Source of the DNA: a virus
Lineage: Duplodnaviria; Heunggongvirae; Uroviricota; Caudoviricetes
IMG/VR virus record: IMGVR_UViG_3300008108_000013
Reading direction: 5' to 3' (one strand)
Length of the DNA: 64,000 nt
Positions 10,301 to 47,453 of the stretch are shown here, in pieces. The notes below the pieces were generated by a model that saw nothing but the letters and a program-made list of their open reading frames with translations, was not told the origin of the DNA and ran no database searches. The first letter of the stretch is position 1, and each line of letters opens with the position of its first letter. A program made the translations under genes and the position numbers.

Positions 10301-13300
10301 TGATAAATTTCGTCAGTAAGAGATTCAAGTTGTTCCTGTAAATCTACTTCACTGTTTACTAATGTATAATATTCATTAGTTTTCGTAGTTAATACTTCTT
10401 GAGCATCGGCTAATGTTTCTTGAGCCGATGTTTTGCTATTATAATAAGGATCGTCTAATCGAACAGGATCAAAAAATGCTGTTATAACAATATTACTACC
10501 TGTTGGGACTGCATCATTTAAAAATACTGTTCCATTAGAATTTATAGTACAATCTATAGGATCTACTAGCGTTCTTGTAAACACAGCAGAAGTTCCTGTT
10601 TCGATGTCTTTAAACAATATTTGATCTAGCTTAACTGTTTTGTTAATAGTATTGACTTCTATTACCTTAGTGTCTAAACCAATAGTTTTCTCAACATCTG
10701 GAATTATTGTTACTATGTCACCGACTTGAATGTTATTAACACTTACTAAGGTAATTGTATTGCTACCTTCAACATTAGTAGTAGCTGTATCATCAAATTC
10801 AACTGTAGTTTCTACTCTAACTGTTGGCGGATAGATATTTAAAATGTTAAAATTATAAATTTTTGTGAATCCGTCACCGGGATAAGTTTCAATATTCTTA
10901 CTAGAATAATAAACGTTCATTTCTGTTCCGTTAGGAGGAACATATGGCAGGGTGAAGCTATGTGTATTGGCAGCAACAGTTACAATATAATCGCTAAATG
11001 TAGTGTCTGAGCTATCCCATTTGTCTGTATAATACGGTACACTATCCCATCCCTGACCAACTTCAAATGATAGTCCGGTAACGTTGACACCACCGTAATC
11101 GACTCCGGTCATTAGCTGTCCTAGCTCTTTACCGAGCTCTCCGGCTACTGGATCATAATAATATTGAATTCTGTCAGCCGCATTAAGGACTGACCAATCT
11201 TTAGTATAGTTAATTTTAACTGTAGATCCTCTTGCAGGTGCAACGTCAAATGTTAATAGACCACTATAACTTGTATAACCTCTGGATGTAGATTTAACAG
11301 TTGATAATTTATAATCTGATTTTAATACTTCTACATCATTTATTGTAACGGTTTCGATTCCAAGTTTAACATTATTAGCAAATGTATTAACAATATCAGG
11401 TGCCCACTTTAGAGGAAACTGTAGTCTAGAACCAGAAACTGCAACACTACCAGAATAAGTTTCAGTTTCTTGCAAACTTGTAATAAAATAACGTTGTGTT
11501 AGTCTGTCAAACTTTATTCCGATGTGATTATTTCTAATAACGCCGTCACCTATAATAGCCACGGCCCTAGCCTGTACTCCAGTTGTACCAAGACCTCCCT
11601 CGAGGACGATTACAGGAGCATCAAGATATCCTGAACCACGATTAATTAAAGATATTCTTGTAACTTTTCCGTTAGTTATAAACGCTCTGGCACGAGCGCC
11701 GGATCCGGAATTGCTGATTATTCTTACAACAGGTTCACTTACATATCCGGCGCCTTGCGACGAAACAACTATTGACGTGATATTATATCCTAAATTATCG
11801 TACCAATGCTTCCATGGATATTCTAATAATTTGTTGGAATTAGTTTGTACTATACCGTTTCTAACGACTACATCTATCGGAGTTATTGCACCATCTTCAA
11901 ATACCGCTGGTAAATCAAAATCAGTTGTTGACAATAAAGAATTATCAACTTTGTCGTATGAACTAATAAATTCTCTTATCTTAGTTCTATATGGCTTAAC
12001 TTCGTTGATAAAATCTTCAAAGTTTTCAAGATTGTCATTATTGTATGTGACTTTTTGTTTTAATTCGCCGACTGAGTGTTTAGCTTTAACGAAACTAGTT
12101 TTAAATATCCAATCTACATAGTTCTGTTCGCTTAATACATATCTTACGCTATTAAAGAATAAATCAAGATATGATTGTTTTAGGTCGTCTGTAAGAATAT
12201 TGTTCTTAATTGCATTTAAAATAATTCGCAATTCTATCGAAGCAGAATTATCAAATATCGATGAGTCATAAAGCGAAGCATCGAAACCATATTGTGTATT
12301 TGAGAAGCTATACAAATTAGAATTAAACTGTATTGTTCCTTTTTCGCTACCAATTACTTCATAGCTCTGTGTCCAGTCAACTGATGTCGACTCGGCATAC
12401 TTTCTTAATAACAACCAAGTTCCGTTATTAGTAGTTCTAATCTTAACTATTTGATCAATATCTGTCTTTAAATTATTTAGGTCTACAAAGGAGCTTACAG
12501 AAAAATCGATAGCAGTAAATTGATTGTAGCCCGGAGCATACCAATCTACATATGACCAATAATTTCTTACGTCATACGATTGTGTTTGTACTCTTGACCA
12601 AGTTAAAGATAGAGGCTCATATGAGTATATGCTCCAATTGCCGTACGCTGTACTATCACTGTGTACTAGTATAGAATAATTTCTAACTGTAACTGTTGTT
12701 TGATCAGAGTATCCCTCTCCTTGAGAAATAATTTCAACTCCGGTAATTCTCCCTCGAGTATCAAGGACTGATCGAACTACTGCACCGGTGCCAGTACCGC
12801 TAATTGTCAAATAAGGAGCAATTAAATATCCTCTACCTCTTTGTACAATATCAATTCCTGTTATTCTTCCATCATTAATAATCGGTTTTAGTACTGCCTT
12901 TTCGTATGTTCCAATATTCGTAAATCGTAATTCTTCTTCAGAATCAATTGCCGAATCGTACAGACCCGATATCTCCGAAGGTTCTTTTTCAAATTGTTCT
13001 ATGCTTGATAAATCAGATCTCTCTACGATCAGATTATTAATTAGAACAAGATTTATTTGTTCGATAAACTGTTTTAATGCTTCAAATCTATTAACAAACA
13101 TTCCCTGTCTTGGTCTAAATTCTATGCCGTATTTTATTTTTGGAGGTAGTGTAGTATCTGGGACTAGTCGACCTGCCTCGTCTTTACCGCATAAACTGTC
13201 AAACCATTTGTTTTCAATGAAACGAGGAATCGAAGAATTTGGATTGTTACTAATAATTTTCCATTCGTTATGAATGTTTTTATTATCGTAATTCCCGGTC

Positions 13301-16300
13301 CAGTATTCAACGGATAAAACAATATTTGAATCCTGAAGCAAAGGCTTAACGTTAACAAGACTAAACGAATTAGGACTTGTTAATGCAAGATATTTGTAAC
13401 CATACCCCCTAGGGTTAGAAATTAATTCTGCTACATCATTAGCAGGGATTTTTCTAAAGTTGACATTTGGAATAGTTTTCTTGTTCTTAACCCAATAATA
13501 ATAAGTGTTCTTAAATGTTTTAGCGACAGAATCATATTTTTTAATTAAACCATAAACATCGTTACCATAAAGAGTAGTGCCGCTAACACCTGTTATTAGC
13601 CCTTCGTCTGTATCTGCTCTGCTATTCCACTGAGAAGGTGTTAATGTTGTTTCTACCCATTCGTAGATATCAACGCTTGCTCCCGGGAACAATGTATTCC
13701 AAGTACTATTCCTATATACTAGATCATTATCTTGACTGTCGTAAAATTTAGCAGTTCTTAAATCCCACCAGAGAGTTCCTACTTGTGCTTTACCCCAAGC
13801 CATTCCTTCGTCAATTTTTACTGTAGAGTTTCCAACTGAATAAATTGCAGGATCGTAAAAAGTTTTATATCTAATTTCTTGGTCAGCAAGGCCTGGAATT
13901 CTGCCTTGTGTAGAATCAATGACATCAAGATAAGATACTAATTTATTAGTGTTTCGATCGTATAAGAATGCTCGTTTAATCTTTGATAAATCAATTCTAT
14001 CTGTTTCTTGATGCAAGACTGACCAACTAAATTTCCCTATTGGTTTTCTATATTCGTGTACTCTACCAGAGCTAAGTCCTTGGTCAAGGGCATATGGAGC
14101 TCCGACTAAGATAACGTCAGATCCTACAGCTAAACCTGTACTATATCCTGTAGAAATATCTTGTCCATTTACTAGGCTCTCACTGAATATCCATTTGCTA
14201 CCATACCTGTCATATACATCGATTCGACCGCTATCCTCAGCGACATCAACAATTTTTGTCAAGTTATTATCAAATGTTGTTGATCCTAAATCGATCGTCA
14301 TTGTTGTTTTAGTGTCTGAACCTTCGCTATAAACAACTAATGTATCATAATCATTCATAAAAGATATTTTTGAGCCGAAGAATTCAGCAGTTTCGGGATC
14401 AAGATTGTATAACTCCTGATATTGAGAATAACCAGTGCCGTTGTCCTTGTAGACAATAACTGTTCCTTGATCTATCGTTTCTTTATCATCAAAAATAGAA
14501 GAAACTGCAATATATTGCCCAGTGTTAGAAACTGTAATTGAAGTACCGTAATCTGGTGATCCGTTAGTTAGAACAGTATAAAGAGAATATTGCCCAGAAG
14601 CTAACTTATAGACGAAAACTTTTCCGGGTATCTTAATTAATTCGTCACCTTCGACTGATAAATTTTCACTATTATTATCATAGACGCCGCCTGGTGCAGA
14701 AACTAAAAGCGTTGAATTATCTTTACTTACTATAGTAGATGTACCAAACCTACTTCCAGACTGCAATGGCTCGCCGACTACTATACTAGTATCGTATCTC
14801 CAACCGGTTACAGTAAATGATAATATTGTACTTGGATCTGAATCAGGGGGAGCATTTAATATTAATGTTGTAGAATTAACTACCTGTGCTACATATTGTG
14901 TAGTGAAACCATTTCCTAGCACATGCATACCTGCTCGTATATTTGCAGTACTTGACACAACTAATGTCTGTCCAGAACTACCAACTGGGTTATAGTTTGT
15001 AGTGGCTTCGATAGTTGTCTTATAGGTTAATCTATAAACTTTACCTGTGTCGTTCTGGAATCCTTCGGAACCGACTAATAAAGTATCACTACCGAATGCA
15101 AGACTTGATCCAAATTTTTCATTATTCAACGGATGCGGGCTAACAATCGTAGCAACTAACGTAAAGATATTATTCGCATCTTTTTCGTATATCGAAACAA
15201 CACCTTGTTTTGTTAAATTAGAGTTTGTTGATAAAGAATCTTCACCAACTGGAATATAAGAAATTTCCTTCCAGAAATTTGTTTGAGTTTCTGGATTCTT
15301 ATTTAAATTTGCAGGAAGGCCAACAATAAACTGTGCTTGGTAAGGTTTAGAATTATAAATTACTATATCGCCTACAGCATAGCTTGTCACTGAAGACCAC
15401 AGAGGAGAACCTCCTACATATTTCAATCTAGAAGACACATTATTTGCCAACGGTGTTCCAGTTGCTAACCACCTACTGTCTCCGGAGATAGCTATAACAT
15501 CACCGGTTAAACTCGCAGGCGTAGCATTATCATCGAAACCAGTATTCTTAGATATAAATGGAACAGTTATTGTTTGTCTTTGTAGCCACGGTGCAACTGG
15601 TCCGGCTTTATCATATATAATTACTTCGCCAAGGTCATTAGAAATAGCAGTAATATTAGCGCCAGGATTTAATACAATTCTTCTTCCATATGAAAGACCT
15701 TCTTGCGGAGCAGTATTAATAATTTCATCTAAAGAGTAAATTGGATTATACTGCCATGTCATCCATTTATTATTTCCGTTGTCGTCAATCCAAAGTAGTT
15801 CACCGTTGTTTGGTGCAGTCTTTAGTACTTGGTCTGCCCTATCTATAGCATAGTCAATTGACCCGTTACCATTAACAACATTTTTTACCCTATAAGAATA
15901 AAATGTTGAAATTACTATCTTATTTTGTTCAGTAAACGGTGTTCTAAAATTAGTAATAGACGGTGCTGATAAAATAATTTTCTTTAAGTCTATATCAACA
16001 ACTTTATAAAATCCTGGAAAGGTAGATACTTGATCTATTCCGATGATATCACCTATGCGTACTGAAGTATTCTTGTCTAAGACCAATGTTAATAACTTGT
16101 CATTAGTAGAATAGGCAGCATCGACAACTGTTTGTTCTAATCGACTGTATCTATAGACATTCCATTCTCTGCCTTCGAATCCGACCCAAACATAATCACC
16201 TTCAACATAATCAGTAATATCAGTACTAATTACTTGATCGAGCGACACAAATGAATACTTAACATCGCTAGGTCTTACATATCCCGGTGTTCTTAAAAAT

Positions 16301-19300
16301 GACGGCTTATCTTCTGCAACAGGCCACGGACTATTGCTGTATCCTACTGGCTTAAGATACACTTCATTAGGGGTCTGTCTTACTATAAAGTCAACCAATG
16401 ATGTGTCAATTTGATTAACTAGCTCGTATCCTTGGGGATTATTTTTTACATCAGATTCGTCAATTATAAATTCGATGTTTTCAAATGCCTGGCTTGCACC
16501 GTACTGCCCGGTACGTAATGCCCATTCTTCATAAAAATCAACGCTTTCTTTATCATCGGCACTCAGAACATCAAATAGTTTATTAAGAACATTTTGTGTT
16601 CCCTTTTCAACTATCATTCCTTGATAAAACTTAAATTCGCTAACGTCGTCTTTAATAATGTTACTTAGATATTGACGCTTTTGATATCCAACTAAATGTT
16701 GTGCTACTGCCTGCTGATCTCCGTCAAAATTGTCGCTATCTAAACTATAAAAATCTGTAAACTGCTCGGCTTTATATGTCCAGTTAGGTAATAATCGCGG
16801 AGTAGGTTTTTGATCTAACTTAATCCACTTGTTATTATCAAACGACTCCTCTCCAGGAATAAATCGAGAAGCAGAATAATAAAATTGCTTATATTTTACA
16901 ATGTCGCCTAGCGCATAATCTTTCCATGACTCCCAATCATCGATCTTCGCTTGATCGAAGATAAATCCTGGAATGTTGAACGATCCGTTCCATTCGCTAC
17001 TAACATACCCGGATACTTTAATTTTTTCTTGTCTATATCCGCTTTCAGGATTATAAATTGTATCGTTGAACAAAGTTGAATTATTAAGAATAACAACTTG
17101 TTCTTTTTGCACGAGATAAAAAGTTGCACCATATATACCGTCTTCAGTTGGTGTATAACTTACTGCATTATCTTCTCTATAATTATTTAAAAAATTAGGT
17201 TGTATCGGTGTTCCGTCAACTTTAAATATTTCGTAACCATTAAAAGAATTACGAATGTCGTCGACTACACTTAACGGTGCTTCGAAAGTTAATTTAATTG
17301 CGGCTGGACTTAGGCTTATTACAGCACTTCCAATGTCACTTAGTCCGTCAAGTTTAACAAAATTATCTTCTTGAAAAACTTCTGAAGGATCCGATGTAAC
17401 TACTGATTTATAATAATCGCCGGCGTACTTTACAACACTACCTACAGGTACAAATTCATTTGGCTTCCAGTCGTCCCATTGGTCTTCGCCGGTGCTCCAG
17501 TTTTGTGTAGTCCAGAATAAAAATTCTTTAGCACTAGTTTCCCAATTAGTTATAGCATTTAATTCTGCATTAAAGTCATCAAAAATAAATCCTTGGTCTT
17601 TCAAATATTCGCCGTATCCTAAAAGGAAATCAACAACTTCTTGAATTGTTCTAAATCTAGTTCCGTATGGAACTACGATTTCCTCGGTCCTATCCCATTC
17701 TGTTCGTATATAAGCATCTCGACCACCAATTAGAGGAAGAGACGGTAGTAATTGATAATATTTAGAATCAAATGTATCTGATGTTGTATGTAAAACTTTT
17801 GATCTGTAATATCTATTATTGTAAAATATTACTTTACCAGAAGAATATGTTGACTGAGAAGTCCATTCAACAAATCCCTCAGATATGCCGCCGATGTTTA
17901 TTAGTAAACCAAGATTAGTAGCTGGATAATATTTAAAGTATGGTTGAGTTTTACTGTAACCTTTTACTGAAAAACCGTCAGCACCCTTCGTAATAACTAC
18001 TCCGCTATATGATATCTTCTTGATAGGACTAGACGAATTTAGAATAATCTCATAATCTTCTTGAGGGACAAATACACTACTTTGACTTAAAGGTGTTTTA
18101 CTATCTAATAGTAACTTAAATTTTTCTTTACTGCTAAAAGATCCTATTCTGTACGATAGTTTAGCTTGAATATTTTTTAAATTATATTGATACTCAGTAT
18201 AAGATCTTAAATTGTCACTAAGGATATAATCTACAATGTAATTAATAATTCCAGAAGATTTAATATTAGAAGTGCTAGAATAGATGCTAGGCAATACAAT
18301 GTCGCTGGCTGTAATTCTAACTCCAGTATCTTTATAAATCAACTGCCCTGCTAAATTTCTAACAATTCTTGACCTATCTAAAAGAGTTCCTAAGGTAGTT
18401 GCTGGCTGCAACAACATTGATGCAACCATTACACTGAACGGATAATAACTACTTCTTCGCCAAGCAGTCTCAACAGGACTTTGGTCTCCGAATACAAAAT
18501 CGTTAGCTGTGCTAGTTGTGATCGGTCCTAGAGCTAAACCAGAATCTAATGGACTAATAATATTTCCATCTTGATCTACCGGTATTCTTCCTTTTAGATA
18601 TGGCCTCTTGTATTTTTCTACATACACCGTTGGTGAATTAGGTTGCTTTACTAGCCCATCGGCTATGTCTTCCCACATTATTAAATTGTCGCTAGTATAT
18701 GGAGCAGGACCATATACTTCTTGCCACCAACTTGGCTCTATAGAAAAACCTAACATTTCCCAAGGACAAAGGTTCGGCCTATCTGTTCCTAGCATCCACT
18801 GATAGACACCTCTCCAGTATCCCGGAAGAGGCGAAGAACCGTCTAATGCCGGTAATTCTTTATAGTTAAAAGTAAGACTATTATCTCTAGAATAACCAAG
18901 CGGTTTAGTAAAATCTTTACTAACAAGTCCCGACCACTGGTAAAAACTTATTGAGAGGACTTCATTAAATTCAGACAGCGAATATCTATTACTCTTATTA
19001 AAAGACGGAATTAAATCTTGTACATCAAATATGTTAGAATCGTACTTAATTTTAATATTATTAAAAATTCTCTTTTCTAATTCTAATATTAAATCGTCTC
19101 TGTAATCATTGTAGGCCAATATTAAGCTACCGTCGTGGCCCTGTATCATCCACCGTGGATTTACCAACGTGGTATCATAAATCTTTTTAGGTTCATATTT
19201 TGGCCAAATACCTAACTTAGTTGGTGTTGGTGGAACACAGCATCCATTAGTATTTTCAAATTCCCATATTGTAACTTTATCATCGTTTTGCAATTCTGCA

Positions 19301-22116
19301 GAAATAACAACAAATCCCTGATCACTAAATGTATAATCTTTTTCATACAGTAGTTGGTTGTCATTAAGATAAACGATAACTGCCTTATTTGATAATGTAT
19401 CTAAATTAAAATTATTTGTTAAAGGATATGTTTTTATTCTATAGTCAATTACTGTTAGTTCAGTTTTGATTCCGCCAGCGTATGGGATCATATCACTAAA
19501 ATAGTAAGGACTTGACTTTGGTTTATCTTTATTAATTTCTTGTAAAATTAGATTTACTAACTCTACCGGGTCAGTATCAATCCCAAGATTTTCTGCTACT
19601 GAAACAAAATTTCTTTTAAATTTATTATAGTCTTCTCTAGACGATTCAATGGCTCTGATAATGTTATTTGTATCGGATGTTACATGATACAAGACCAAGC
19701 TCATCGGGCCGCTGTGTTGAACAAACTTAGTTCCGAGATCAGAAACACCGCCTAAATCTCTGAGATTATTTGGTCCTGGAAACTGCCCTTCGAAATTTTC
19801 TAAATTTTCTACAATAGATCCAACATGATCAATAACTTCTCCAAGAGTAAAATCTCCTATATCGTTATTAGATGGATTATTTTGTAAATTTATAGGAACT
19901 TCGTAATAACCATTTTCATTAATAGGTTGGTTAGAATAACATTTGATTGTTAAAACGTCTGAATCTAGAATGTCATTATTTAAAATAATTGTTTTATATC
20001 GACCACTCGTTGAGATTGTATAGTCGGCAGGTTGTACAAACAATCCGTTAACAAATACCTTAACTCGAAGATCGCCTAAACTATCGATATCATCAAAAAT
20101 ATCGATATTAAAATTATTAAATTTGTTAGAATTTTTATAAATTCTTACTGCTGGTTGTACATCAAATGTACGGGCTGTAGTCCAACCGTTAATATATCCA
20201 GCGTCAGTATCTTCATAATTAAAAAGATAACCTACTTTAATTTGTTTATCTTTGATATCAACTATATCTTTGTATTGAAACTTATCAGTTGCTAAATTAA
20301 AATTAAAAACAATATCCCCAATATTGGTTATGTTTTTATAAGACAATGGAAATCCTAAAGTTGCGTCGTTAGCACCTGTTCCTTGCTTATAAGAAAAGAG
20401 TTTAGTTCCCTTAAATGTCGATCCGTCATAAACAGTTTTATCTCCAAAGCTATGTCCAGTTTCGTCAAATACATCGAACATAGGAGATTGATTTACTGAA
20501 GTTTTTTGCTGACCTAGATTCCATTGATCTCCATCATACCAATACATCTGTCCTTTATTCTTATTCCCCTGGCGGATCAATACTAGATCGTTTGTAACTG
20601 GTAGCTCTTGCTCTACTAAATGTATTTTTCGTACGCCGTCGAGTAATAAAAAATCAACCTTATAAATTCTGTTCCTAACTAGTCTGTCGGTATCAGCAGT
20701 AAACAACACACGCTGACCTTGAGCTAGTTGAATTCCGTCAACGTTATATCCTAGCTGGCCTTCTACCATAGAAAAAACATCAACAGTATAATCGTCAATC
20801 ACATCTACATCGCCGAGGGCTCTAGTTCCAAAATTATAAAGTTTAATATTTGGTTCGAACTCGATAATAGGTCTAGTTGCTCTAGCTGATTGATCTATAG
20901 AAGCTACTTTATTGTTATAAGTTGCACTTTTCTCAATGACATCTTTATGGAACCAACGATTATATCGACTCCAAGGATTCCTATCGGTACTAGCACGGTT
21001 AACAACAATGTAATCAGATTTTCCAGCGAATGAAATAGCATCGTCCCAAGGCTGGCTGTCAAATTTTCCGGAATCAAACGGTACAGATTGTTGATTAGTA
21101 TAGGTACTAATTAGTTCTAAAACTTTTTCGTTTACAAGACGGATAGACCTACCAACACCTTCTACATAATATTGTCCAACAGAATACTCAGCAGGACTGA
21201 CATTGCCCACAAATGAAACTTTCATTCCATTGCTTAATTTTGTTCCGTCTGATAATACGTATTCTTTCTTTCCTAAAATATCTGTCGAAATATCTAAAAC
21301 TGTATTTTCCTCGATAGATTCTACTTGAAAAACTCCGCCGAGATCGATATCTGTTTCACTCACATAATAAAGAATATCCGGACTATTATATGGTAAAGTA
21401 ATTTCAATTACGCCATTTTCTACAGCATATCCAGTTACACCAGGATTAATATATCGATCAAATGATTCGGGAGATCTTGCAGTCTTAATACTAAATGGAT
21501 TTCCTGGACTGTTAATTTCAAATCTATAAGTTTGTCCTCTAAACAATTTTAAAGTAGGGTTTTGTGTAGCACCGTCTGGGCTGAACACGTAAACATTATT
21601 ATCAGTTTCGGATTGTAAATCTACTTTATATGAACTTATAATATTTTCTTGTTGGCCAAATATTCTTACAGTATCTGGGCCATACGGTAACCAGTAATAA
21701 TTTTGAAAGTTAACAAATTTATCCCAGTCGATATGCGGATTCCAAGAATAAAATTCTTGGCGATTTAATCTATTATGATTTTTTGTGTTTGATCCGAATA
21801 CAGACAATTGGTTAATATAGTCTTGATAATCTTTGAAAAATACATTATTACCGATAGAGTCTTTAATTGTAAGAGCTGGTTCTAATTGGTAATCTTGTCT
21901 ATCTTTTGTCGAAGCAGTAATAAAAATATCAGAGCCGACGGCTGATTTTGCATTTTGGCGACCGATATAACCGTTTACTTTTTTAACAGTACCCGGTTGT
22001 ATTAACTGATCTATAGTGGCCTGTAAAAACTTTTTATTAGCATCTGTTTTAAAATAACGAGGTAATAAATCAGTTGCTGTTGTTTTTAAGTTTTTTATTT
22101 TCTTACTCTCAGCCAT
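7399..22116 (-). CDS. Giant baseplate wedge/structural protein (4905 aa), gp7-like position
   Basis: Uninterrupted 14.7-kb ORF directly downstream of the gp6-like gene. Contains CBM5/12-like W..Y..GD.V.Y motifs, FG-GAP-like propeller repeats (e.g. FGSSLAFG, FGTS, VGAPY), G-x-G-Y repeats and a coiled-coil insert. Confidence 0.7.
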   Translation of the reverse strand: MAESKKIKNLKTTATDLLPRYFKTDANKKFLQATIDQLIQPGTVKKVNGYIGRQNAKSAVGSDIFITASTKDRQDYQLEPALTIKDSIGNNVFFKDYQDYINQLSVFGSNTKNHNRLNRQEFYSWNPHIDWDKFVNFQNYYWLPYGPDTVRIFGQQENIISSYKVDLQSETDNNVYVFSPDGATQNPTLKLFRGQTYRFEINSPGNPFSIKTARSPESFDRYINPGVTGYAVENGVIEITLPYNSPDILYYVSETDIDLGGVFQVESIEENTVLDISTDILGKKEYVLSDGTKLSNGMKVSFVGNVSPAEYSVGQYYVEGVGRSIRLVNEKVLELISTYTNQQSVPFDSGKFDSQPWDDAISFAGKSDYIVVNRASTDRNPWSRYNRWFHKDVIEKSATYNNKVASIDQSARATRPIIEFEPNIKLYNFGTRALGDVDVIDDYTVDVFSMVEGQLGYNVDGIQLAQGQRVLFTADTDRLVRNRIYKVDFLLLDGVRKIHLVEQELPVTNDLVLIRQGNKNKGQMYWYDGDQWNLGQQKTSVNQSPMFDVFDETGHSFGDKTVYDGSTFKGTKLFSYKQGTGANDATLGFPLSYKNITNIGDIVFNFNLATDKFQYKDIVDIKDKQIKVGYLFNYEDTDAGYINGWTTARTFDVQPAVRIYKNSNKFNNFNIDIFDDIDSLGDLRVKVFVNGLFVQPADYTISTSGRYKTIILNNDILDSDVLTIKCYSNQPINENGYYEVPINLQNNPSNNDIGDFTLGEVIDHVGSIVENLENFEGQFPGPNNLRDLGGVSDLGTKFVQHSGPMSLVLYHVTSDTNNIIRAIESSREDYNKFKRNFVSVAENLGIDTDPVELVNLILQEINKDKPKSSPYYFSDMIPYAGGIKTELTVIDYRIKTYPLTNNFNLDTLSNKAVIVYLNDNQLLYEKDYTFSDQGFVVISAELQNDDKVTIWEFENTNGCCVPPTPTKLGIWPKYEPKKIYDTTLVNPRWMIQGHDGSLILAYNDYRDDLILELEKRIFNNIKIKYDSNIFDVQDLIPSFNKSNRYSLSEFNEVLSISFYQWSGLVSKDFTKPLGYSRDNSLTFNYKELPALDGSSPLPGYWRGVYQWMLGTDRPNLCPWEMLGFSIEPSWWQEVYGPAPYTSDNLIMWEDIADGLVKQPNSPTVYVEKYKRPYLKGRIPVDQDGNIISPLDSGLALGPITTSTANDFVFGDQSPVETAWRRSSYYPFSVMVASMLLQPATTLGTLLDRSRIVRNLAGQLIYKDTGVRITASDIVLPSIYSSTSNIKSSGIINYIVDYILSDNLRSYTEYQYNLKNIQAKLSYRIGSFSSKEKFKLLLDSKTPLSQSSVFVPQEDYEIILNSSSPIKKISYSGVVITKGADGFSVKGYSKTQPYFKYYPATNLGLLINIGGISEGFVEWTSQSTYSSGKVIFYNNRYYRSKVLHTTSDTFDSKYYQLLPSLPLIGGRDAYIRTEWDRTEEIVVPYGTRFRTIQEVVDFLLGYGEYLKDQGFIFDDFNAELNAITNWETSAKEFLFWTTQNWSTGEDQWDDWKPNEFVPVGSVVKYAGDYYKSVVTSDPSEVFQEDNFVKLDGLSDIGSAVISLSPAAIKLTFEAPLSVVDDIRNSFNGYEIFKVDGTPIQPNFLNNYREDNAVSYTPTEDGIYGATFYLVQKEQVVILNNSTLFNDTIYNPESGYRQEKIKVSGYVSSEWNGSFNIPGFIFDQAKIDDWESWKDYALGDIVKYKQFYYSASRFIPGEESFDNNKWIKLDQKPTPRLLPNWTYKAEQFTDFYSLDSDNFDGDQQAVAQHLVGYQKRQYLSNIIKDDVSEFKFYQGMIVEKGTQNVLNKLFDVLSADDKESVDFYEEWALRTGQYGASQAFENIEFIIDESDVKNNPQGYELVNQIDTSLVDFIVRQTPNEVYLKPVGYSNSPWPVAEDKPSFLRTPGYVRPSDVKYSFVSLDQVISTDITDYVEGDYVWVGFEGREWNVYRYSRLEQTVVDAAYSTNDKLLTLVLDKNTSVRIGDIIGIDQVSTFPGFYKVVDIDLKKIILSAPSITNFRTPFTEQNKIVISTFYSYRVKNVVNGNGSIDYAIDRADQVLKTAPNNGELLWIDDNGNNKWMTWQYNPIYSLDEIINTAPQEGLSYGRRIVLNPGANITAISNDLGEVIIYDKAGPVAPWLQRQTITVPFISKNTGFDDNATPASLTGDVIAISGDSRWLATGTPLANNVSSRLKYVGGSPLWSSVTSYAVGDIVIYNSKPYQAQFIVGLPANLNKNPETQTNFWKEISYIPVGEDSLSTNSNLTKQGVVSIYEKDANNIFTLVATIVSPHPLNNEKFGSSLAFGSDTLLVGSEGFQNDTGKVYRLTYKTTIEATTNYNPVGSSGQTLVVSSTANIRAGMHVLGNGFTTQYVAQVVNSTTLILNAPPDSDPSTILSFTVTGWRYDTSIVVGEPLQSGSRFGTSTIVSKDNSTLLVSAPGGVYDNNSENLSVEGDELIKIPGKVFVYKLASGQYSLYTVLTNGSPDYGTSITVSNTGQYIAVSSIFDDKETIDQGTVIVYKDNGTGYSQYQELYNLDPETAEFFGSKISFMNDYDTLVVYSEGSDTKTTMTIDLGSTTFDNNLTKIVDVAEDSGRIDVYDRYGSKWIFSESLVNGQDISTGYSTGLAVGSDVILVGAPYALDQGLSSGRVHEYRKPIGKFSWSVLHQETDRIDLSKIKRAFLYDRNTNKLVSYLDVIDSTQGRIPGLADQEIRYKTFYDPAIYSVGNSTVKIDEGMAWGKAQVGTLWWDLRTAKFYDSQDNDLVYRNSTWNTLFPGASVDIYEWVETTLTPSQWNSRADTDEGLITGVSGTTLYGNDVYGLIKKYDSVAKTFKNTYYYWVKNKKTIPNVNFRKIPANDVAELISNPRGYGYKYLALTSPNSFSLVNVKPLLQDSNIVLSVEYWTGNYDNKNIHNEWKIISNNPNSSIPRFIENKWFDSLCGKDEAGRLVPDTTLPPKIKYGIEFRPRQGMFVNRFEALKQFIEQINLVLINNLIVERSDLSSIEQFEKEPSEISGLYDSAIDSEEELRFTNIGTYEKAVLKPIINDGRITGIDIVQRGRGYLIAPYLTISGTGTGAVVRSVLDTRGRITGVEIISQGEGYSDQTTVTVRNYSILVHSDSTAYGNWSIYSYEPLSLTWSRVQTQSYDVRNYWSYVDWYAPGYNQFTAIDFSVSSFVDLNNLKTDIDQIVKIRTTNNGTWLLLRKYAESTSVDWTQSYEVIGSEKGTIQFNSNLYSFSNTQYGFDASLYDSSIFDNSASIELRIILNAIKNNILTDDLKQSYLDLFFNSVRYVLSEQNYVDWIFKTSFVKAKHSVGELKQKVTYNNDNLENFEDFINEVKPYRTKIREFISSYDKVDNSLLSTTDFDLPAVFEDGAITPIDVVVRNGIVQTNSNKLLEYPWKHWYDNLGYNITSIVVSSQGAGYVSEPVVRIISNSGSGARARAFITNGKVTRISLINRGSGYLDAPVIVLEGGLGTTGVQARAVAIIGDGVIRNNHIGIKFDRLTQRYFITSLQETETYSGSVAVSGSRLQFPLKWAPDIVNTFANNVKLGIETVTINDVEVLKSDYKLSTVKSTSRGYTSYSGLLTFDVAPARGSTVKINYTKDWSVLNAADRIQYYYDPVAGELGKELGQLMTGVDYGGVNVTGLSFEVGQGWDSVPYYTDKWDSSDTTFSDYIVTVAANTHSFTLPYVPPNGTEMNVYYSSKNIETYPGDGFTKIYNFNILNIYPPTVRVETTVEFDDTATTNVEGSNTITLVSVNNIQVGDIVTIIPDVEKTIGLDTKVIEVNTINKTVKLDQILFKDIETGTSAVFTRTLVDPIDCTINSNGTVFLNDAVPTGSNIVITAFFDPVRLDDPYYNSKTSAQETLADAQEVLTTKTNEYYTLVNSEVDLQEQLESLTDEIYQLQTELNALNVIIDGLDPSNPLYIESVNRINDLVNTEIPAVQDQIDSVSNDLSNLDQDIADKLAEKNHAQIEVNIAQDTYDSIPVLLNSTAIMQTIISDGIPDDLVNPTYKTFSIPSTFTVLDGDRFIWRKSTSDGSIVPQDTDYDTALSGGNLAYSTATGLAADDILVDGDGFVTPTSSPAPEEVVPGQIVDAVAIKVYDRPSAGSANIKVDSYIADGVTKEFAVSQQPNSPSALIVKFTTGERDEITDELVSVSSIKSLGEDFTFDYSNRLVTLNEAPPEGTLVSIFSFEFNGSKILDINYFIGDGVQTEFVTNAPYVDNITYQVYVDGQPAQPGNPALFETDLSYESPGRVGLYFSVPPANGSLVNFILISGNERTYSIATTEKFPGNGGSLYDLYYVVGDIVPVESSMLVRVNQRILKAPNSSYYTIEPGIVEYFIDPAKYLPYSISTDDIVVLADSQVLNGGVDYTVELSNISIVLNEYVAQNYIGKKLIIAVRRDQEYTYVPPTETEGPKIQFIENFDPSDSIEVISFYKHDILDIQRSRIRISSNLSLTPDTPEYYEYRGLTGGLIQLDRSVLDESYVWVVKNASLLTPSVDYKLNKDRHSIKLALPAKIDDDFTVITFSSNVLTSGVSYMQFKDMLNRVHFKRLNADKRTRLVKPLSYTDTTIEVEDASNFDLPSTANNKPGVVEIRGERIEYFSISGNVLGQLRRGTLGTGVPSLHPVNSYVQDIGASETLPYVESSVIDQVKADGTENVGLSFVPGNFDTSWRYQGRAMTAQEATGLAKSSIEAFVGGYSSVPWQSGVSYKVDDVVEVGTYTYKCVLAHTSSDNFKSDSTKWSFFVGNIRLKKDSYSVHSVAIHPESPEGDVVLDADFTVDNQTASLTLTNNLKLGTRVTVVKRTGTDWDSVTSILDEDNKISRFLKAAPVVWYATIGKYDSTLGDPNTFDRDDGTFDSTSITFDQG

Positions 22117-32978: not shown

Positions 32979-34753
32979 TTAGAATAAAAGAATTAACAGT
33001 AAAAAACTTTATGAGTGTGGGTAATCAAACCCAAGCAGTTGATTTTGATAAAGAAAACTTAACTCTTGTCTTAGGCGAAAACTTAGACATGGGCGGAGAT
33101 GACAGCGGATCACGCAACGGTACTGGTAAAACTACCATAGTCAATGCCCTAAGTTATGCGTTATTTGGGAACGCCCTTACTAATATTAAGAAAGACAATT
33201 TAATTAACAAGATTAACAATAAGAACATGTTAGTTACGTTGGCGTTTGAAAAGGACGGGCAATCGTATCGTATCGAGCGTGGGCGTAAACCCAATATTCT
33301 ACAGTTTTATGTTAACGATATAGAGCAAGAAACTGAAGAAACGGATGATGCCCAAGGAGATATGCGGGAAACGCAGAAAGATCTAGACGATCTGCTGGGT
33401 ATGAGTCACGATATGTTCAAACATATAGTAGCTTTAAACACGTACACCGAACCGTTCTTATCAATGAAGGCCAATGAACAACGTGCTATTATTGAACAGT
33501 TATTAGGTATAACGATTCTTTCAGAGAAAGCAGAAACACTAAAAGAACTTATTCGATCTACTAAAGACGAAATTACACAAGAGTCAGCTAGAATTGAAGC
33601 AACTAAAAAATCCAATGAAGGCATTCAAAAAAGCATCGACAGTCTGATTACTAAACAAACAGCGTGGAACACTCAGCGAGACAACGATGTTGAAAAAATT
33701 GGTCGTGCTATAATTGAATTAGAAAATGTAGATATTGAAGCTGAGCTTGCGAAGCACAGCGACCTAAAACTTTTCGAAGAAAAGTCAGCGAAGCTGAAAA
33801 GCCTAAACAAGGAACGTGCTACGTTAGAAAGCGCGACAGCGCAAGCAGAGCGAAGCGTAAAAAAATACGCAACGGAGTTGCAGTCGCTGGCAAACAAAAA
33901 ATGCCATGCTTGTGAACAAGACTTACATGATCACAAGCATGAAGAAATGACTGCTACTGCTACTCAAAACTTATCAGAGGCTCAAAAGTATCAGGACAAG
34001 GTCCAAAGCGACTTGAATAAAATACTGACAGAAATAACCAGCATTGGAGAGTTAAGTAATAAACCGACTACTTACTATGATACCCTAGAGCAGGCACTCA
34101 AACATCAGAACAATCTCAAAACATTAGAAACACAACTGACCGTTAGAGCAGGAGAGCAGGATCCCTATCAAGAACAGATCGAAGAACTGATGAATACTGC
34201 CATGCAAGAGATTACCTGGGATCAAGTCAACGAATTGACCAGTCTTAAAGACCACCAAGAGTTTTTACTTAAACTACTGACCAGCAAGGATTCGTTTATA
34301 CGTAAAAAGATTATCGATCAAAATCTAGCATACTTGAACAATCGCTTGACCTACTATCTAGACAAGATGGGTCTACCACATACTGTAGTATTCCAAAACG
34401 ATCTTAATGTAGAGATCACACAGCTAGGACAGGATCTAGACTTTGATAATCTTAGTAGAGGCGAGCGTAATAGACTAATACTTGGTTTATCTTGGGCTTT
34501 CCGTGATGTGTGGGAAAGTTTGTATCAGAATATTAACTTATTGTTTGTTGACGAACTTGTAGACAACGGACTTGACGCATCAGGTGTTGAAAATGCTCTA
34601 GCAGTATTGAAAAAGATGTCACGAGAACGTAGCAAGAATATATTCTTGATCAGTCACAAGGACGAACTAGTAGGTCGTGTTAACAACGTGCTCAAGGTAA
34701 TCAAAGAAAACGGGTTTACCAGCTACGCAACTGATCTGGAGATCAGTGAGTGA
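32975..34753 (+). CDS. gp46: Recombination ATPase, Rad50/SbcC family (T4 gp46-like)
   Basis: Walker A NGTGKTT, coiled coils with a central zinc hook CHAC, signature LSRGE, Walker B LLFVDE, ISH switch. Confidence 0.95.
   Translation: MIRIKELTVKNFMSVGNQTQAVDFDKENLTLVLGENLDMGGDDSGSRNGTGKTTIVNALSYALFGNALTNIKKDNLINKINNKNMLVTLAFEKDGQSYRIERGRKPNILQFYVNDIEQETEETDDAQGDMRETQKDLDDLLGMSHDMFKHIVALNTYTEPFLSMKANEQRAIIEQLLGITILSEKAETLKELIRSTKDEITQESARIEATKKSNEGIQKSIDSLITKQTAWNTQRDNDVEKIGRAIIELENVDIEAELAKHSDLKLFEEKSAKLKSLNKERATLESATAQAERSVKKYATELQSLANKKCHACEQDLHDHKHEEMTATATQNLSEAQKYQDKVQSDLNKILTEITSIGELSNKPTTYYDTLEQALKHQNNLKTLETQLTVRAGEQDPYQEQIEELMNTAMQEITWDQVNELTSLKDHQEFLLKLLTSKDSFIRKKIIDQNLAYLNNRLTYYLDKMGLPHTVVFQNDLNVEITQLGQDLDFDNLSRGERNRLILGLSWAFRDVWESLYQNINLLFVDELVDNGLDASGVENALAVLKKMSRERSKNIFLISHKDELVGRVNNVLKVIKENGFTSYATDLEISE
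33738..33889 (+). other. Cluster of C(GNA)G triloop hairpins embedded in the gp46 CDS
   Basis: TGC-GAA-GCA 33748-56, ACTTTTC-GAA-GAAAAGT 33769-85, TCAGC-GAA-GCTGA 33785-97, AACGT-GCT-ACGTT 33813-25, GCGAAGC 33850-56 and GCAAC-GGA-GTTGC 33869-81. Most are enclosed by CAGCGAC (33757-63)/GTCGCTG (33883-89). Confidence 0.7.
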
Positions 34754-34989
34754 TGCGGCCGCAGGACGAAGAACTACATGCAGAGTTACTGCGTGTGTTC
34801 CGAGAATACTTCGAAGCTAACCAACAGTGGCTCAACGAAGGTACTAAAGTGTCTGCAATTCGTCTACGTAAAAAATTATCGGAAATCCGTCGCGTTTGTT
34901 CTAAGCGCAGAGTTGCGATCCGCGAGTGGGCCGTTGATAAAGAACAGCAGTTAGAAGCAAGAAAAGAGCGTAGAAAAAATAATGTCTGA
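34750..34989 (+). CDS. Small basic protein resembling the histone H1-like Hc1 N-terminal domain (79 aa)
   Basis: EGTKVSAIRLRKKLSEIRRVCSKRR resembles the Hc1-type GNKAAgxRaRKxxxElxKxxKxxR helix pair; very K/R-rich. Confidence 0.5.
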   Translation: MMRPQDEELHAELLRVFREYFEANQQWLNEGTKVSAIRLRKKLSEIRRVCSKRRVAIREWAVDKEQQLEARKERRKNNV

Positions 34990-35758
34990 AAAATTAACCA
35001 TAGATTGCTTATACATCAACGGGGATTCGTGGGTCTACGGCAGTGAACTAGTAGATCCTAGCAGACCCGATCTGCAGGATCATTTTCATCCTATCCACGA
35101 AAATTATAGAAAAAAATATAAATGGCCCACGCTGATAGCTGAACAGATTGGTGCAGAATTGATCAACAATTCGGAGCCTGGATCGGGAAATGATCGTATT
35201 TTAAGAACCAGCATATACGATCTAGCACAGTTAAAAATGCAGGGTCGTAGAGTTATGGCGATAGTTGCATGGTCCCAACTTCATCGGTTTGAAGTGTCTA
35301 ACCAAGGCGGCCCCTCATTTAGAGGATTTGTTAATCCTAATGATCCAGAACTGCCCAGAGGTGTTAGAGAATTTTGGGGAACATGGAGTTCTGATTACTG
35401 CGATCTAGTCAAGTGGATCACACAGATGATCAGTTTCCACAGTTTCTGTCGAGCTAACGATATTCCTGTGCTAGGTCTTAGCGTGTTTAAAAAACCTTAT
35501 AATTTACTAGAAAGACATATCAGCAGTAAAGAATTTAAACCGTATCTCACACAGCTCAATGAAATCTGCGATCTACCTGCACAGCACTATCAATTTAGTT
35601 TAGAATCAATACTCAAACAATACACAGGCATAGACTACGGACCTGGAGGGCATCCATTGAAAAAAGGCCATATGATTTTAGCAAGAAATATAGAAAACAA
35701 ACTTAAACAACGATTCACGATTAACCAACCCGAGGCACCCAATCAGCTACATAGTTGA
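34982..35758 (+). CDS. SGNH/GDSL-like hydrolase (258 aa)
   Basis: Block I NGDSWVYG, block II PGSGNDRI, C-terminal GGHP..GH catalytic-His motif. Confidence 0.7.
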   Translation: MSEKLTIDCLYINGDSWVYGSELVDPSRPDLQDHFHPIHENYRKKYKWPTLIAEQIGAELINNSEPGSGNDRILRTSIYDLAQLKMQGRRVMAIVAWSQLHRFEVSNQGGPSFRGFVNPNDPELPRGVREFWGTWSSDYCDLVKWITQMISFHSFCRANDIPVLGLSVFKKPYNLLERHISSKEFKPYLTQLNEICDLPAQHYQFSLESILKQYTGIDYGPGGHPLKKGHMILARNIENKLKQRFTINQPEAPNQLHS

Positions 35759-36201
35759 TGACATGGTATTACAATAATGAACAAGTCGAAACACTCCCTG
35801 AAGATTGCGTAGGCTTTGTTTATATCATCACCAACCTCATCAGCGGCAGGCGATACATAGGCAAAAAACTAGCCAAATTTAGTAAAACCACATATAAAAC
35901 TGTAAAACTCAAGAACGGCAACAAAAAGAAAAAGAAAATTCGCAGTAAAATTGACAGTGACTGGCGTGACTATTATGGATCAAGCCCGGAACTAAGCAAA
36001 GATATTGCGGAATTAGGCACAGAAAACTTTCGTAGAGACATACTTTTTTACTGTTCTAGCAAAGCAGAATGCAGTTATATAGAGGCCCGCGAACAATTTA
36101 CCCATCGAGTACTAGAATCAAAAGACTGGTATAACGGCCATATTCAAGTAAGAGTACACGGCTCGCATATACTCAAGGCTCAAGAAAAACAGGCAAAATA
36201 A
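35755..36201 (+). CDS. GIY-YIG-superfamily nuclease (148 aa; likely start ATG 35758)
   Basis: GFVYIITN...RYIGKK motif pair, YYGSS, conserved E (YIEAREQF) and a terminal YN; a Lys-rich loop KLKNGNKKKKKIRSK lies within. Confidence 0.75.
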   Translation: MMTWYYNNEQVETLPEDCVGFVYIITNLISGRRYIGKKLAKFSKTTYKTVKLKNGNKKKKKIRSKIDSDWRDYYGSSPELSKDIAELGTENFRRDILFYCSSKAECSYIEAREQFTHRVLESKDWYNGHIQVRVHGSHILKAQEKQAK

Positions 36202-36566
36202 AGCGGTTTTTGGGCTCAGTGCCGGCCAATATCGGGCACCCTTATACCTGGATCTCGGATCGCAGGGACGGAAATCTCTCGCCGCAAAGAGTACTCAGCA
36301 ACTACCCGTAATGGATGAAGATCGCTTAAAACCTGCGATTTTGCTGTTTGAAAAGAATATGTATAGGTAAAAAGAGCAGGGAAAACCTGCACGTACACAA
36401 GTATGTTAGCGTATATTTGTGTGCCGCCGTCATTATGAAGACGGGGCTCGAGGTACCGGATGACCGCCTCTGTAATGCCCTAACGCTATGTGGCATTGTT
36501 CAACTCGGATAATGTTTTTTTTCGCCCGGAAACGGGCGAAGTGTGGCTGAACAATCTGGATAATGC
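36202..36566 (+). ncRNA. Putative large structured non-coding RNA (family unassigned)
   Basis: The gap has no credible ORF, is GC-rich and is covered by helices: ATCGCAGG/CCTGCGAT, GCAGG-GAAAA-CCTGC, a 12-13 bp stem 36393-36424, CCGTC/GACGG, GGGC/GCCC with GAGG/CCTC, ATTGTTCA/TGAACAAT and TTCGCCCG-GAAA-CGGGCGAA. There are two possible pseudoknots. G-U pairs and the GAAA loop favour the + strand. Confidence 0.7.
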
Positions 36567-36569
36567 TAA

Positions 36570-36660
36570 AACGCTTCGCGTTCATGATGTTTGTTGATTA
36601 TTATCTAAGATCTAAAAAAGCTCGAGCGATAGCGAAGAGCAGATTGACGTAGTCAATCTG
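36570..36660. other. Second cluster of C(GNA)G triloop hairpins
   Basis: AACGC-GAA-GCGTT on the - strand (36570-82), GCTC..GAGC (36620-40) and CAGATTGAC-GTA-GTCAATCTG on the + strand (36640-60). Confidence 0.6.
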
Positions 36661-36667
36661 ATAATAG

Positions 36668-36675
36668 TATAAATA
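36668..36675 (+). promoter_or_regulatory. T4-type late promoter (perfect TATAAATA)
   Basis: Exact T4 consensus, followed by a GAGGA SD and ATG 36694. Confidence 0.8.
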
Positions 36676-46631: not shown

Positions 46632-46720
46632 CTAAATAATAATGTCTAATATGAGCTTGCCTTGTAGCAAGACTTATGCAGAATCCCTCTGCGTAGACCT
46701 AGAACGTCATATTTAAGGAG
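46632..46720 (+). promoter_or_regulatory. Late promoter (CTAAATA) plus structured 5' leader
   Basis: Three-way junction: GTCTA/TAGAC, ATGAGCTTGC/GCAAG-A-CTTAT and GCAGA/TCTGC, followed by AAGGAG. Confidence 0.6.
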
Positions 46721-46727
46721 AAAACAA

Positions 46728-47453
46728 ATGGGACGTCCATTAAACAAAAAATATTTTGCCAATACAAACTATCAAGATTTTGGCACAGCAAATGTTGGTG
46801 GCGAAAGCGTTGCCAGCGTAACCGCACCAGCAGGTACACTAGCTGATTTAGAAACAGGAACATTTACAATTCCTGCGGCAAGTATTACTGCCCCAGACAT
46901 CACCGGCGGCGCAAAGCCAGTTTTACAAGTAGTTGTAACCGGTGCAACAACATATACAGTAAGTGTTGTATCAGCAGGTTCAGGATATACAAGTGCTCCA
47001 ACAATTACATTTAACGGCAGTATTACAGGCGGATCTGCTTCAGGTAGTTCTACACCAGTAGCAACACTAACATCTAGTACATCTGCTCGTCAGAACGGTA
47101 TTAAGTGTGAAACACAATACGGTTCAGGCGACAGCGAAATTACTACCGGCGACATTATTAAACAAGAAAGTTCTAAGCGTTATAAAGTTCAAACATCTCA
47201 AGGTACTGGTTTCTTTACACTAGTAACAACTGAATCTAAATCAGCCGGCGAAATGTCAATTATGGCAACTGACAGCGCAGGCGGCACATACCTTGTTAAG
47301 AAATTAACTGCTCGTAAAGCAGTTCTAGTTCCAACAGCAAATGCACACGGCGGATCAAGTTCAGCAGGAACACAGTTTGCCAGCGGCACAACTGCTAAAT
47401 GGACATTTGGTTCAGCTGTTTTAGATACAACTGTAACTATTGCTAACCAGTAA
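46728..47453 (+). CDS. Virion structural protein, possible head decoration (241 aa)
   Basis: Thr/Ser/Gly-rich with an AGSGYTSAPTITF motif; directly after the major capsid gene, with a strong SD. Confidence 0.55.
   Translation: MGRPLNKKYFANTNYQDFGTANVGGESVASVTAPAGTLADLETGTFTIPAASITAPDITGGAKPVLQVVVTGATTYTVSVVSAGSGYTSAPTITFNGSITGGSASGSSTPVATLTSSTSARQNGIKCETQYGSGDSEITTGDIIKQESSKRYKVQTSQGTGFFTLVTTESKSAGEMSIMATDSAGGTYLVKKLTARKAVLVPTANAHGGSSSAGTQFASGTTAKWTFGSAVLDTTVTIANQ

What the first reader, a model, noticed from the sequence alone, without database searches (positions are those of the whole stretch)
35755..36566. GIY-YIG-like nuclease followed immediately by a ~370-nt double-pseudoknot RNA: candidate nuclease-RNA system
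Seen: the largest non-coding gap in the window starts at the nuclease stop codon. It is visibly more GC-rich than the genome and almost fully covered by helices. Domain 1: TACCT(36245-49)/AGGTA(36365-69) encloses ATCGCAGG(36259-66)/CCTGCGAT(36332-39), whose loop CAGCAA(36296-301) can pair with TTGCTG(36341-46) as pseudoknot 1. Domain 2: the hairpin GCAGG-GAAAA-CCTGC, a 12-13-bp stem 36393-36424 whose apex TAGCGT(36407-12) matches ACGCTA(36483-88) as pseudoknot 2, and the CCGTC/GACGG and GGGC..GAGG/CCTC..GCCC arms. Domain 3: ATTGTTCA/TGAACAAT encloses TTCGCCCG-GAAA-CGGGCGAA, and GGATAATG occurs twice (36507, 36558). The nuclease is essentially a bare catalytic domain with a very basic loop (KLKNGNKKKKKIRSK) and no obvious DNA-recognition domain. 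Known: compact nucleases paired with adjacent large structured RNAs exist (HEARO, IscB/TnpB omega RNAs), and phages carry large ncRNAs (GOLLD, ROOL). Inference: the RNA could be a scaffold/guide for the GIY-YIG protein, a ribozyme or a replication primer RNA. I cannot assign it to a known family.
Basis: partly seen in the sequence, partly recalled or inferred. Interest (0 to 1): 0.88.

Follow-up and report, generated by a model that had tools for sequence, protein, structure and literature searches.

The report
Twin-box phage RNA, probable replication origin
The gap behind a small nuclease gene of this giant freshwater phage holds a real knotted RNA whose first third is already catalogued; it does not depend on the nuclease, and its tail looks like a start site for DNA copying that is primed by the RNA, which is inferred, not shown.

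Summary
The structured element is real. Its first third (36214-36349) is Rfam Polynucleobacter-1 (114 bits, function unknown); conservation runs on to 36660 in over 150 uncultured T4-like phages. The nuclease-RNA idea fails: the same RNA follows an unrelated PD-(D/E)xK resolvase-like gene in the same slot, or no nuclease, and cultured phages carry the GIY-YIG gene without the RNA. The scan has found this element often before on other DNA. New here: (1) the tail ends in single-copy DNA-type mini-hairpins on both strands; one matches a ColE1 hairpin that lies about 150 nt past the origin, on the primer-RNA strand; (2) the two 7-nt boxes change together (19/19/19 changes) with no partner in RNA or nuclease, and their mismatches lean to the G-T wobble expected if box 1 pairs with the template strand of box 2 (7 lineages against 0), though rare reverse cases exist. 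Best reading: an RNA-primed, ColE1-like phage origin (about 40%). No transcription or replication data.

The parts
35758..36201 (+). SegE-like GIY-YIG nuclease (PF19835, phrog_447), last gene of the gp55-gp47-gp46 operon; neighbour, not partner; probably a branched-DNA resolvase (inferred)
   Evidence: invariant Y22, Y33, E109, N126; fold nearest I-TevI Z 8.6; replaced by PF24608/phrog_244
36191..36195 (+). AGGCA word at the 5' edge of the RNA; the same word is repeated in gp32 leaders
   Evidence: AGGC(A/T) in 91 of 146 elements against 22% of control windows
36213..36349 (+). 5' RNA domain, type A = Rfam Polynucleobacter-1; replaced by unrelated 5' domains (types B, C and others) in relatives
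36332..36367 (+). long-range pairing 36332-34/36365-67 from the P6 loop (pseudoknot of domain 1)
   Evidence: 87% paired, slid controls 11-72%
36376..36488 (+). RNA core shared by types A and B: hairpin 36376-90, stem 36393-424, PK2 36407-12/36483-88, PK3 36429-32/36461-64, stem 36444-53/36467-80 with the invariant motif 36452-68
   Evidence: G-U share of the 36393 stem 29%
36436..36440 (+). segment that copies the 3' arm of the tail hairpin (36536-40): can pair with the 5' arm or with the template strand
   Evidence: position 36437 covaries with pair 36523:36538; 4-5 of 5 pairable in 75 of 83
36490..36515 (+). repeat 1 with box 1 (36507-13)
36516..36540 (+). U-rich linker and tail hairpin between the boxes
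36543..36566 (+). repeat 2 with box 2 (36558-64); its bottom strand is the proposed partner of box 1
36570..36582 (-). d(GCGAAGC) mini-hairpin on the template strand
   Evidence: 76 of 151 elements against 18 of 772 control windows; PMC13037366
36583..36619 (.). A+T-rich spacer (77% here, mean 78% in 80 elements), candidate unwinding element
36620..36640 (+). hairpin with tandem G-A pairs and a GC-GNNA-GC cap; same motif in ColE1 about 150 nt past the origin; single copy per record
   Evidence: 120 of 151 elements, 5 on the opposite strand, 2 of 764 controls
36640..36660 (+). terminal hairpin with C-GNA-G triloop and almost no wobble pairs (DNA-type)
   Evidence: 1% G-T
36668..36675 (+). T4-type late promoter of the next gene; marks the 3' border
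   Evidence: only copy on the plus strand of the window

Best explanation
The locus is a single-copy, RNA-primed replication origin of a clade of giant T4-like freshwater phages, built like the ColE1 replicon. Shown: a knotted RNA core, two boxes that change in step, then DNA-type hairpins. Inferred steps: (1) the RNA is made by read-through from the gp55-47-46-nuclease operon or from its own promoter and folds; (2) the tail hairpin folds box 1 back and box 1 pairs out of register with the template strand of box 2 as the polymerase passes, perhaps paused at the template-strand mini-hairpin, which starts a lasting RNA-DNA hybrid; (3) the hybrid is trimmed and primes leading-strand synthesis into the A+T-rich spacer; (4) the displaced top strand exposes the G-A/GNA hairpins, which load primase or the primosome. 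The nuclease is a recombination enzyme of the gp46/47 operon and only a neighbour.
For: Present in 69 of 69 nuclease loci with enough flank and single-copy in records of 150-347 kb. Two chemistries: 29% G-U in the core stem, 1% in the last hairpin; loops are GNA and GNNA, many not GNRA, and such mini-hairpins are DNA-specific and occur at G4 ori, ssiA and N4 promoters (PMC13037366); one sits on the opposite strand. The G-A hairpin matches ColE1 at L229:1332, same strand as the primer RNA; ColE1 primes with a structured RNA and has a primosome site downstream (PMC3167613, PMC5043065); T4 oriF/oriG use R-loops and active T4 origins lie near transcription strand switches (PMC3016281); this element is 5-7 kb from the main divergent switch. 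Boxes: positions 2-7 identical in 158 of 158 tails, joint changes 19/19/19 and 16/16/16 on a tree, no complementary partner in the RNA, none in flanks or nuclease, unrelated box words in divergent types. Mismatches lean one way: position 1 G/A in 7 lineages against 0 in IMG/VR (sign test p 0.016), position 9 T/C 15 clades against 2; 9 of 9 pairable in 125 of 150 tails against 1 of 150 in reverse. Boxes are purine-rich, which favours RNA-DNA hybrids (own knowledge). One copy has its own sigma70 promoter (L188).
Against: Nothing shows replication, an R-loop or even transcription. No replication-type skew at the element. The reverse mismatch exists: A/G at position 1 in 2 real metagenome elements and C/T at position 9 in 65 contigs, so the bias is not absolute; position 8 is mostly a fixed difference and the TG-RY bias can also be a relaxed repeat 1. 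Box positions 3, 4 and 6 hardly vary, more than pairing alone needs. Box spacing varies 47-59 nt. No promoter found in this window. That the ColE1 hairpin is its primosome site rests on my recall of its position, not on a mapped citation. T4-like phages have their own primase and helicase loader. Position near the strand switch is one inherited event.
Confidence: 0.4

Rival explanations
1. A free-standing non-coding RNA (scaffold or decoy) whose two boxes bind two copies of one fast-evolving phage or host protein; the 3' hairpins are an unusual terminator or a separate DNA signal.
For: Rich covarying RNA fold with swappable 5' domains; near-invariant box positions and fixed flanks ACTC and ATCT suit protein contacts; standalone copies, one with a promoter; reverse mismatches exist.
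Against: No reader found: not the nuclease, not the gp32 leader; box words differ wholly between types; does not explain the one-way wobble bias or DNA-type hairpins on both strands.
Confidence: 0.27
2. Box 1 does pair with the complement of box 2, but for transcription control or as DNA: slipped-strand DNA, polymerase realignment, or a short antisense RNA, at the border between the middle operon and late genes.
For: Same mismatch signature; the element nearly always ends an operon, before a late promoter or a convergent gene; U-rich linker after box 1; strand-swap segment 36436-40 suggests a switch; an earlier scan note saw similar hairpins at terminator positions (not checked by me).
Against: The hairpin module is single-copy, not at other operon ends; no U-tract terminator on the last hairpin; downstream genes vary in kind and direction.
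Confidence: 0.2
3. GIY-YIG protein and RNA form a ribonucleoprotein nuclease.
For: Directly adjacent in 58 of 73 RNA-anchored loci; minimal nuclease with a basic arm.
Against: Replaced by an unrelated nuclease with the RNA unchanged; 15 of 73 loci not adjacent; no co-evolution; cultured homologues lack the RNA; no variable guide, no mobility.
Confidence: 0.05
4. A ribozyme or intron remnant.
For: Size and several pseudoknots; invariant core 36452-68.
Against: No Rfam ribozyme or intron match; intergenic, no split gene; explains neither boxes nor DNA hairpins.
Confidence: 0.04

Closest known systems
Polynucleobacter-1 RNA motif (Rfam RF01718; Weinberg et al. 2010, PMC2864571, Additional file 1)
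   Same: 36214-36349 matches the whole model at 114 bits; the paper already notes that it lies downstream of a cyanophage-like gene family.
   Different: The model covers about 140 of 450 nt; core, twin boxes and DNA hairpins are not in it; types B, C and others share the tail but give no Rfam hit; no function was proposed.
ColE1 replicon (RNA II primer, R-loop, downstream primosome assembly site)
   Same: Large structured RNA, then an A+T-rich stretch and the same G-A/GNA hairpin on the RNA-sense strand.
   Different: No sequence similarity of the RNAs; phage chromosome, not plasmid; twin boxes; no antisense RNA I shown.
T4 R-loop origins oriF and oriG; oriE iterons
   Same: T4-like phage; transcript next to an A+T-rich stretch; near a strand switch; direct repeats as at oriE.
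   Different: T4 origins share no local motif and have no ornate RNA (PMC3016281); no MotA promoter found here.
Mini-hairpin priming signals: G4, St-1, alpha3 origins, RSF1010 ssiA, N4 hairpin promoters
   Same: GC-GNA-GC and GC-GNNA-GC caps.
   Different: Here in a double-stranded phage, behind an RNA gene, on both strands.
IscB-omegaRNA (HEARO) and TnpB-reRNA
   Same: Small nuclease gene beside a large structured RNA.
   Different: GIY-YIG instead of RuvC/HNH; no guide; not mobile; nuclease exchangeable.
GIY-YIG nucleases I-TevI, T4 EndoII, Slx1
   Same: Fold and catalytic Tyr, Tyr, Glu, Asn.
   Different: No separate DNA-binding domain; long basic beta-hairpin; activity untested.

Membership tests
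Polynucleobacter-1 (RF01718) | Score above the gathering threshold over the full model | tested here: met
   114 bits against 37, positions 1-141
Polynucleobacter-1 (RF01718) | Consensus helices covary | tested here: met
   P1 97%, P2 90%, P4 98%, P6 94%
Polynucleobacter-1 (RF01718) | Downstream of a GOS11034 / PSSM2_218-like gene | tested here: inconclusive
   Upstream gene has hundreds of cyanophage homologues; PSSM2_218 itself not compared
RNA-guided nucleases (IscB, TnpB) | RuvC or HNH nuclease | tested here: not met
   GIY-YIG by Pfam and fold
RNA-guided nucleases (IscB, TnpB) | Obligate, co-evolving protein-RNA pair | tested here: not met
RNA-guided nucleases (IscB, TnpB) | Variable guide and mobile, multi-copy element | tested here: not met
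   single copy, fixed synteny, conserved ends
ColE1-type RNA-primed origin | Structured primer RNA transcribed towards the origin | tested here: inconclusive
   structure shown; promoter only in L188
ColE1-type RNA-primed origin | Priming hairpin downstream on the displaced strand | tested here: met
   motif and geometry match by sequence; activity not tested
ColE1-type RNA-primed origin | Persistent RNA-DNA hybrid, RNase H processing, primer extension | not testable with these tools
   only the indirect mismatch bias
ColE1-type RNA-primed origin | Antisense RNA I control | not tested
   none
ColE1-type RNA-primed origin | RNA II sequence homology, plasmid replicon | tested here: not met
   no match among 72,556 plasmids; so 'works like', not a member
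T4 R-loop origins | Middle promoter plus downstream unwinding element | tested here: inconclusive
   A+T-rich spacer present; promoter not found
GIY-YIG superfamily (PF19835) | Profile match, fold, catalytic residues | tested here: met
Slx1-type branched-DNA resolvases | Cuts branched DNA | not testable with these tools
   inferred from displacement by phrog_244; fold match to Slx1 weak, Z 3.4

The most novel reading that the evidence does not exclude
A clade of giant T4-like phages starts DNA replication from one dedicated origin in which a pseudoknotted primer RNA captures the template strand through an out-of-register 7-9 nt repeat, followed by plasmid-type single-strand priming hairpins: a ColE1-like replicon in a phage chromosome, and the function of the Polynucleobacter-1 motif.
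Probability: 0.3. Interest if true: 0.86.

Novelty: new variant of a known kind. Interest (0 to 1): 0.62.

Why it matters
It would give a function to an RNA motif unexplained since 2010, define a replication origin for an abundant uncultured phage clade (T4 origins share no motif, so origins of its relatives are mostly unknown), and show a new way to start an R-loop. The twin boxes make the idea directly testable by matched mutations. Separately, the swap with a resolvase-like gene suggests a job for a core gene of cyanophages that is widely mislabelled 'NAD synthetase'.

Tried and rejected
RNA runs: no RNA holder listed, and three metatranscriptome contig sets gave no cover: uninformative. 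Own genome not held. Skew in the window and in complete genome G007: no replication signal. BLAST of the gap against cultured phages and plasmids: nothing real. Box as nuclease-read code: best residue predicts position 1 at 0.63 against a baseline of 0.55. Box or complement enriched in flanks: no. Box in gp32 leaders: no; the shared word is AGGCA. Phased double-stranded iterons: spacing 47-59 nt is too broad. Host DnaA box, sigma70 promoter, CsrA site and the CS-6 of single-strand origins: rejected since the letters vary or covary with a pairing partner. Position-5 mismatches: only chance matches in coding DNA in either direction. Search for endonuclease VII rang nowhere, controls included, so it shows nothing. 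Genome-collection hits are short MAG contigs with phage genes, probably mis-binned. PDB sequence search: no significant hit. Literature: one paper names the motif; searches for a description of the full element or of the hairpin word found nothing relevant. No complex prediction was run, as no binding is claimed.

Full report
Setting. The window is part of an uncultured T4-like phage: late sigma factor gp55, gp47, gp46, a small gene, DUF6071, the 148-aa ORF, the gap, then late genes. A complete relative is 347 kb. The gap is the largest between longer ORFs and is 48.5% GC against 38.2%.

Observation. Every motif quoted is present. Rfam RF01718 Polynucleobacter-1 covers 36214-36349 at 114 bits. 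The only paper that names it says it lies downstream of a cyanophage-like gene family and gives no function (PMC2864571). Homologues from 80 nuclease-anchored and 120 motif-anchored viral loci show conservation to 36660. These counts rest on a plain MAFFT alignment and count sequences, not events. The scan has reported this element many times on other DNA; those notes are not independent support.

The nuclease is a neighbour. It is PF19835; the model (pLDDT 87) is a GIY-YIG fold with a basic beta-hairpin, nearest I-TevI Z 8.6, EndoII 5.4, Slx1 3.4. Of 73 RNA-anchored loci, 58 have it adjacent, 7 have genes between, 6 have a PD-(D/E)xK gene (PF24608, phrog_244 'RusA-like resolvase') in its place and 2 have neither. 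Behind the PD-(D/E)xK gene stand the same type-A and type-B RNAs. The two genes excluded each other in the five records tested, one complete and one 85% complete. On the nuclease tree the RNA's 5' type changes at least 9 times and the box word at least 51 times; no residue tracks the box. Three cultured phages have the gene and its basic arm but no RNA. I infer a branched-DNA nuclease of the gp46/47 operon; activity is untested.

Two chemistries. The core stem has 29% G-U pairs, the tail hairpin 10%, the last hairpin 1%. Past box 2 lie a d(GCGAAGC) mini-hairpin on the bottom strand (76 of 151 against 18 of 772), an A+T-rich spacer, a hairpin with tandem G-A pairs and a covarying two-pair cap (120 of 151; 5 on the other strand; 2 of 764 controls), and a C-GNA-G triloop hairpin. 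Such caps are far more stable in DNA than RNA and occur at phage G4 and ssiA priming sites (PMC13037366). The same G-A hairpin lies in ColE1 about 150 nt past the origin on the primer-RNA strand. It is single-copy in the phage records tested, and every nuclease locus with enough flank has an element (69 of 69).

Twin boxes. Positions 2-7 are identical in all 158 tails; positions 5 and 7 change jointly 19 and 16 times. No complementary partner exists in the RNA, the flanks or the gp32 leader. Identity is what pairing of box 1 with the complement of box 2 would give, and it predicts G/A and T/C mismatches but not the reverse. Scans of IMG/VR in both directions gave 14 real contigs in 7 lineages with G/A at position 1 and none with A/G; in the sampled tails position 9 shows T/C in 15 clades and C/T in 2. 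Against this, a targeted scan found C/T at position 9 in 65 contigs and the larger metagenome collection holds two real A/G elements, with no count of G/A there. The bias is real but not strict, so pairing is favoured, not proven, and the partner could be template DNA, slipped DNA or antisense RNA.

Mechanism. Shown: RNA-type knotted core, twin boxes, DNA-type hairpins, independence from the nuclease. Inferred: transcription, capture of the template strand by box 1, R-loop, priming, primosome loading, by analogy with ColE1 (PMC5043065, PMC3167613) and the T4 R-loop origins (PMC3016281). There is no skew signal, no promoter in this window and no expression data. I give this 0.40, a free RNA with two protein sites 0.27, transcription control or slipped DNA 0.20, a nuclease-RNA complex 0.05 and a ribozyme 0.04.

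Verdict. A real, extended variant of a catalogued but unexplained RNA motif; a member of RF01718 for its 5' third, not a member of any RNA-guided nuclease family, and possibly working like a ColE1 origin. Interest 0.62.

Noticed in passing
window 46655-46730 +: Rfam freshwater-2 motif (RF02980, 64 bits) between the major capsid-like gene and the next gene.
   Followed up: no
window 35758-36201; phrog_447: The family is labelled 'NAD synthetase' in PHROGs and many cyanophage records but is a GIY-YIG nuclease; it trades places with a PF24608 resolvase-like gene after gp46.
   Followed up: yes
L230-L235 (gp32 leaders); L095, L129, L154 upstream of the RNA: Tandem AGGCA repeats precede gp32 and, in some lineages, the RNA; possibly gp32 loading or autoregulation sites.
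   Followed up: partly
L004, L073, L068, L060, L237-L246, L259, L261, L104: At least four more 5' RNA types with no Rfam hit where tested; most keep twin boxes with other words and the G-A/GNA hairpins; L237 and L246 have about 100 nt of near-pure A+T before the hairpins.
   Followed up: partly
L094 and L237-L246: RNase HI gene with its own sigma70-like promoter lies between the PD-(D/E)xK gene and the RNA in these lineages.
   Followed up: partly
L188, L140, L095: RNA outside the gp46 operon; L188 has a sigma70 promoter directly upstream.
   Followed up: partly
window 34982-35758 and 34750-34989: DUF6071 gene inserted before the nuclease; the small gene after gp46 sits where relatives have an Hc1-like histone H1-like gene (PF07432 in L202).
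   Followed up: no
L001-L080: Contig ends fall within 700 nt downstream of the nuclease in 11 loci against 2 upstream; probably assembly breaks at the shared conserved element.
   Followed up: no
window 7399-22116 -: 4905-aa ORF in the baseplate region.
   Followed up: no
L104: Two tandem gp26-like genes downstream of a very divergent copy of the RNA.
   Followed up: no
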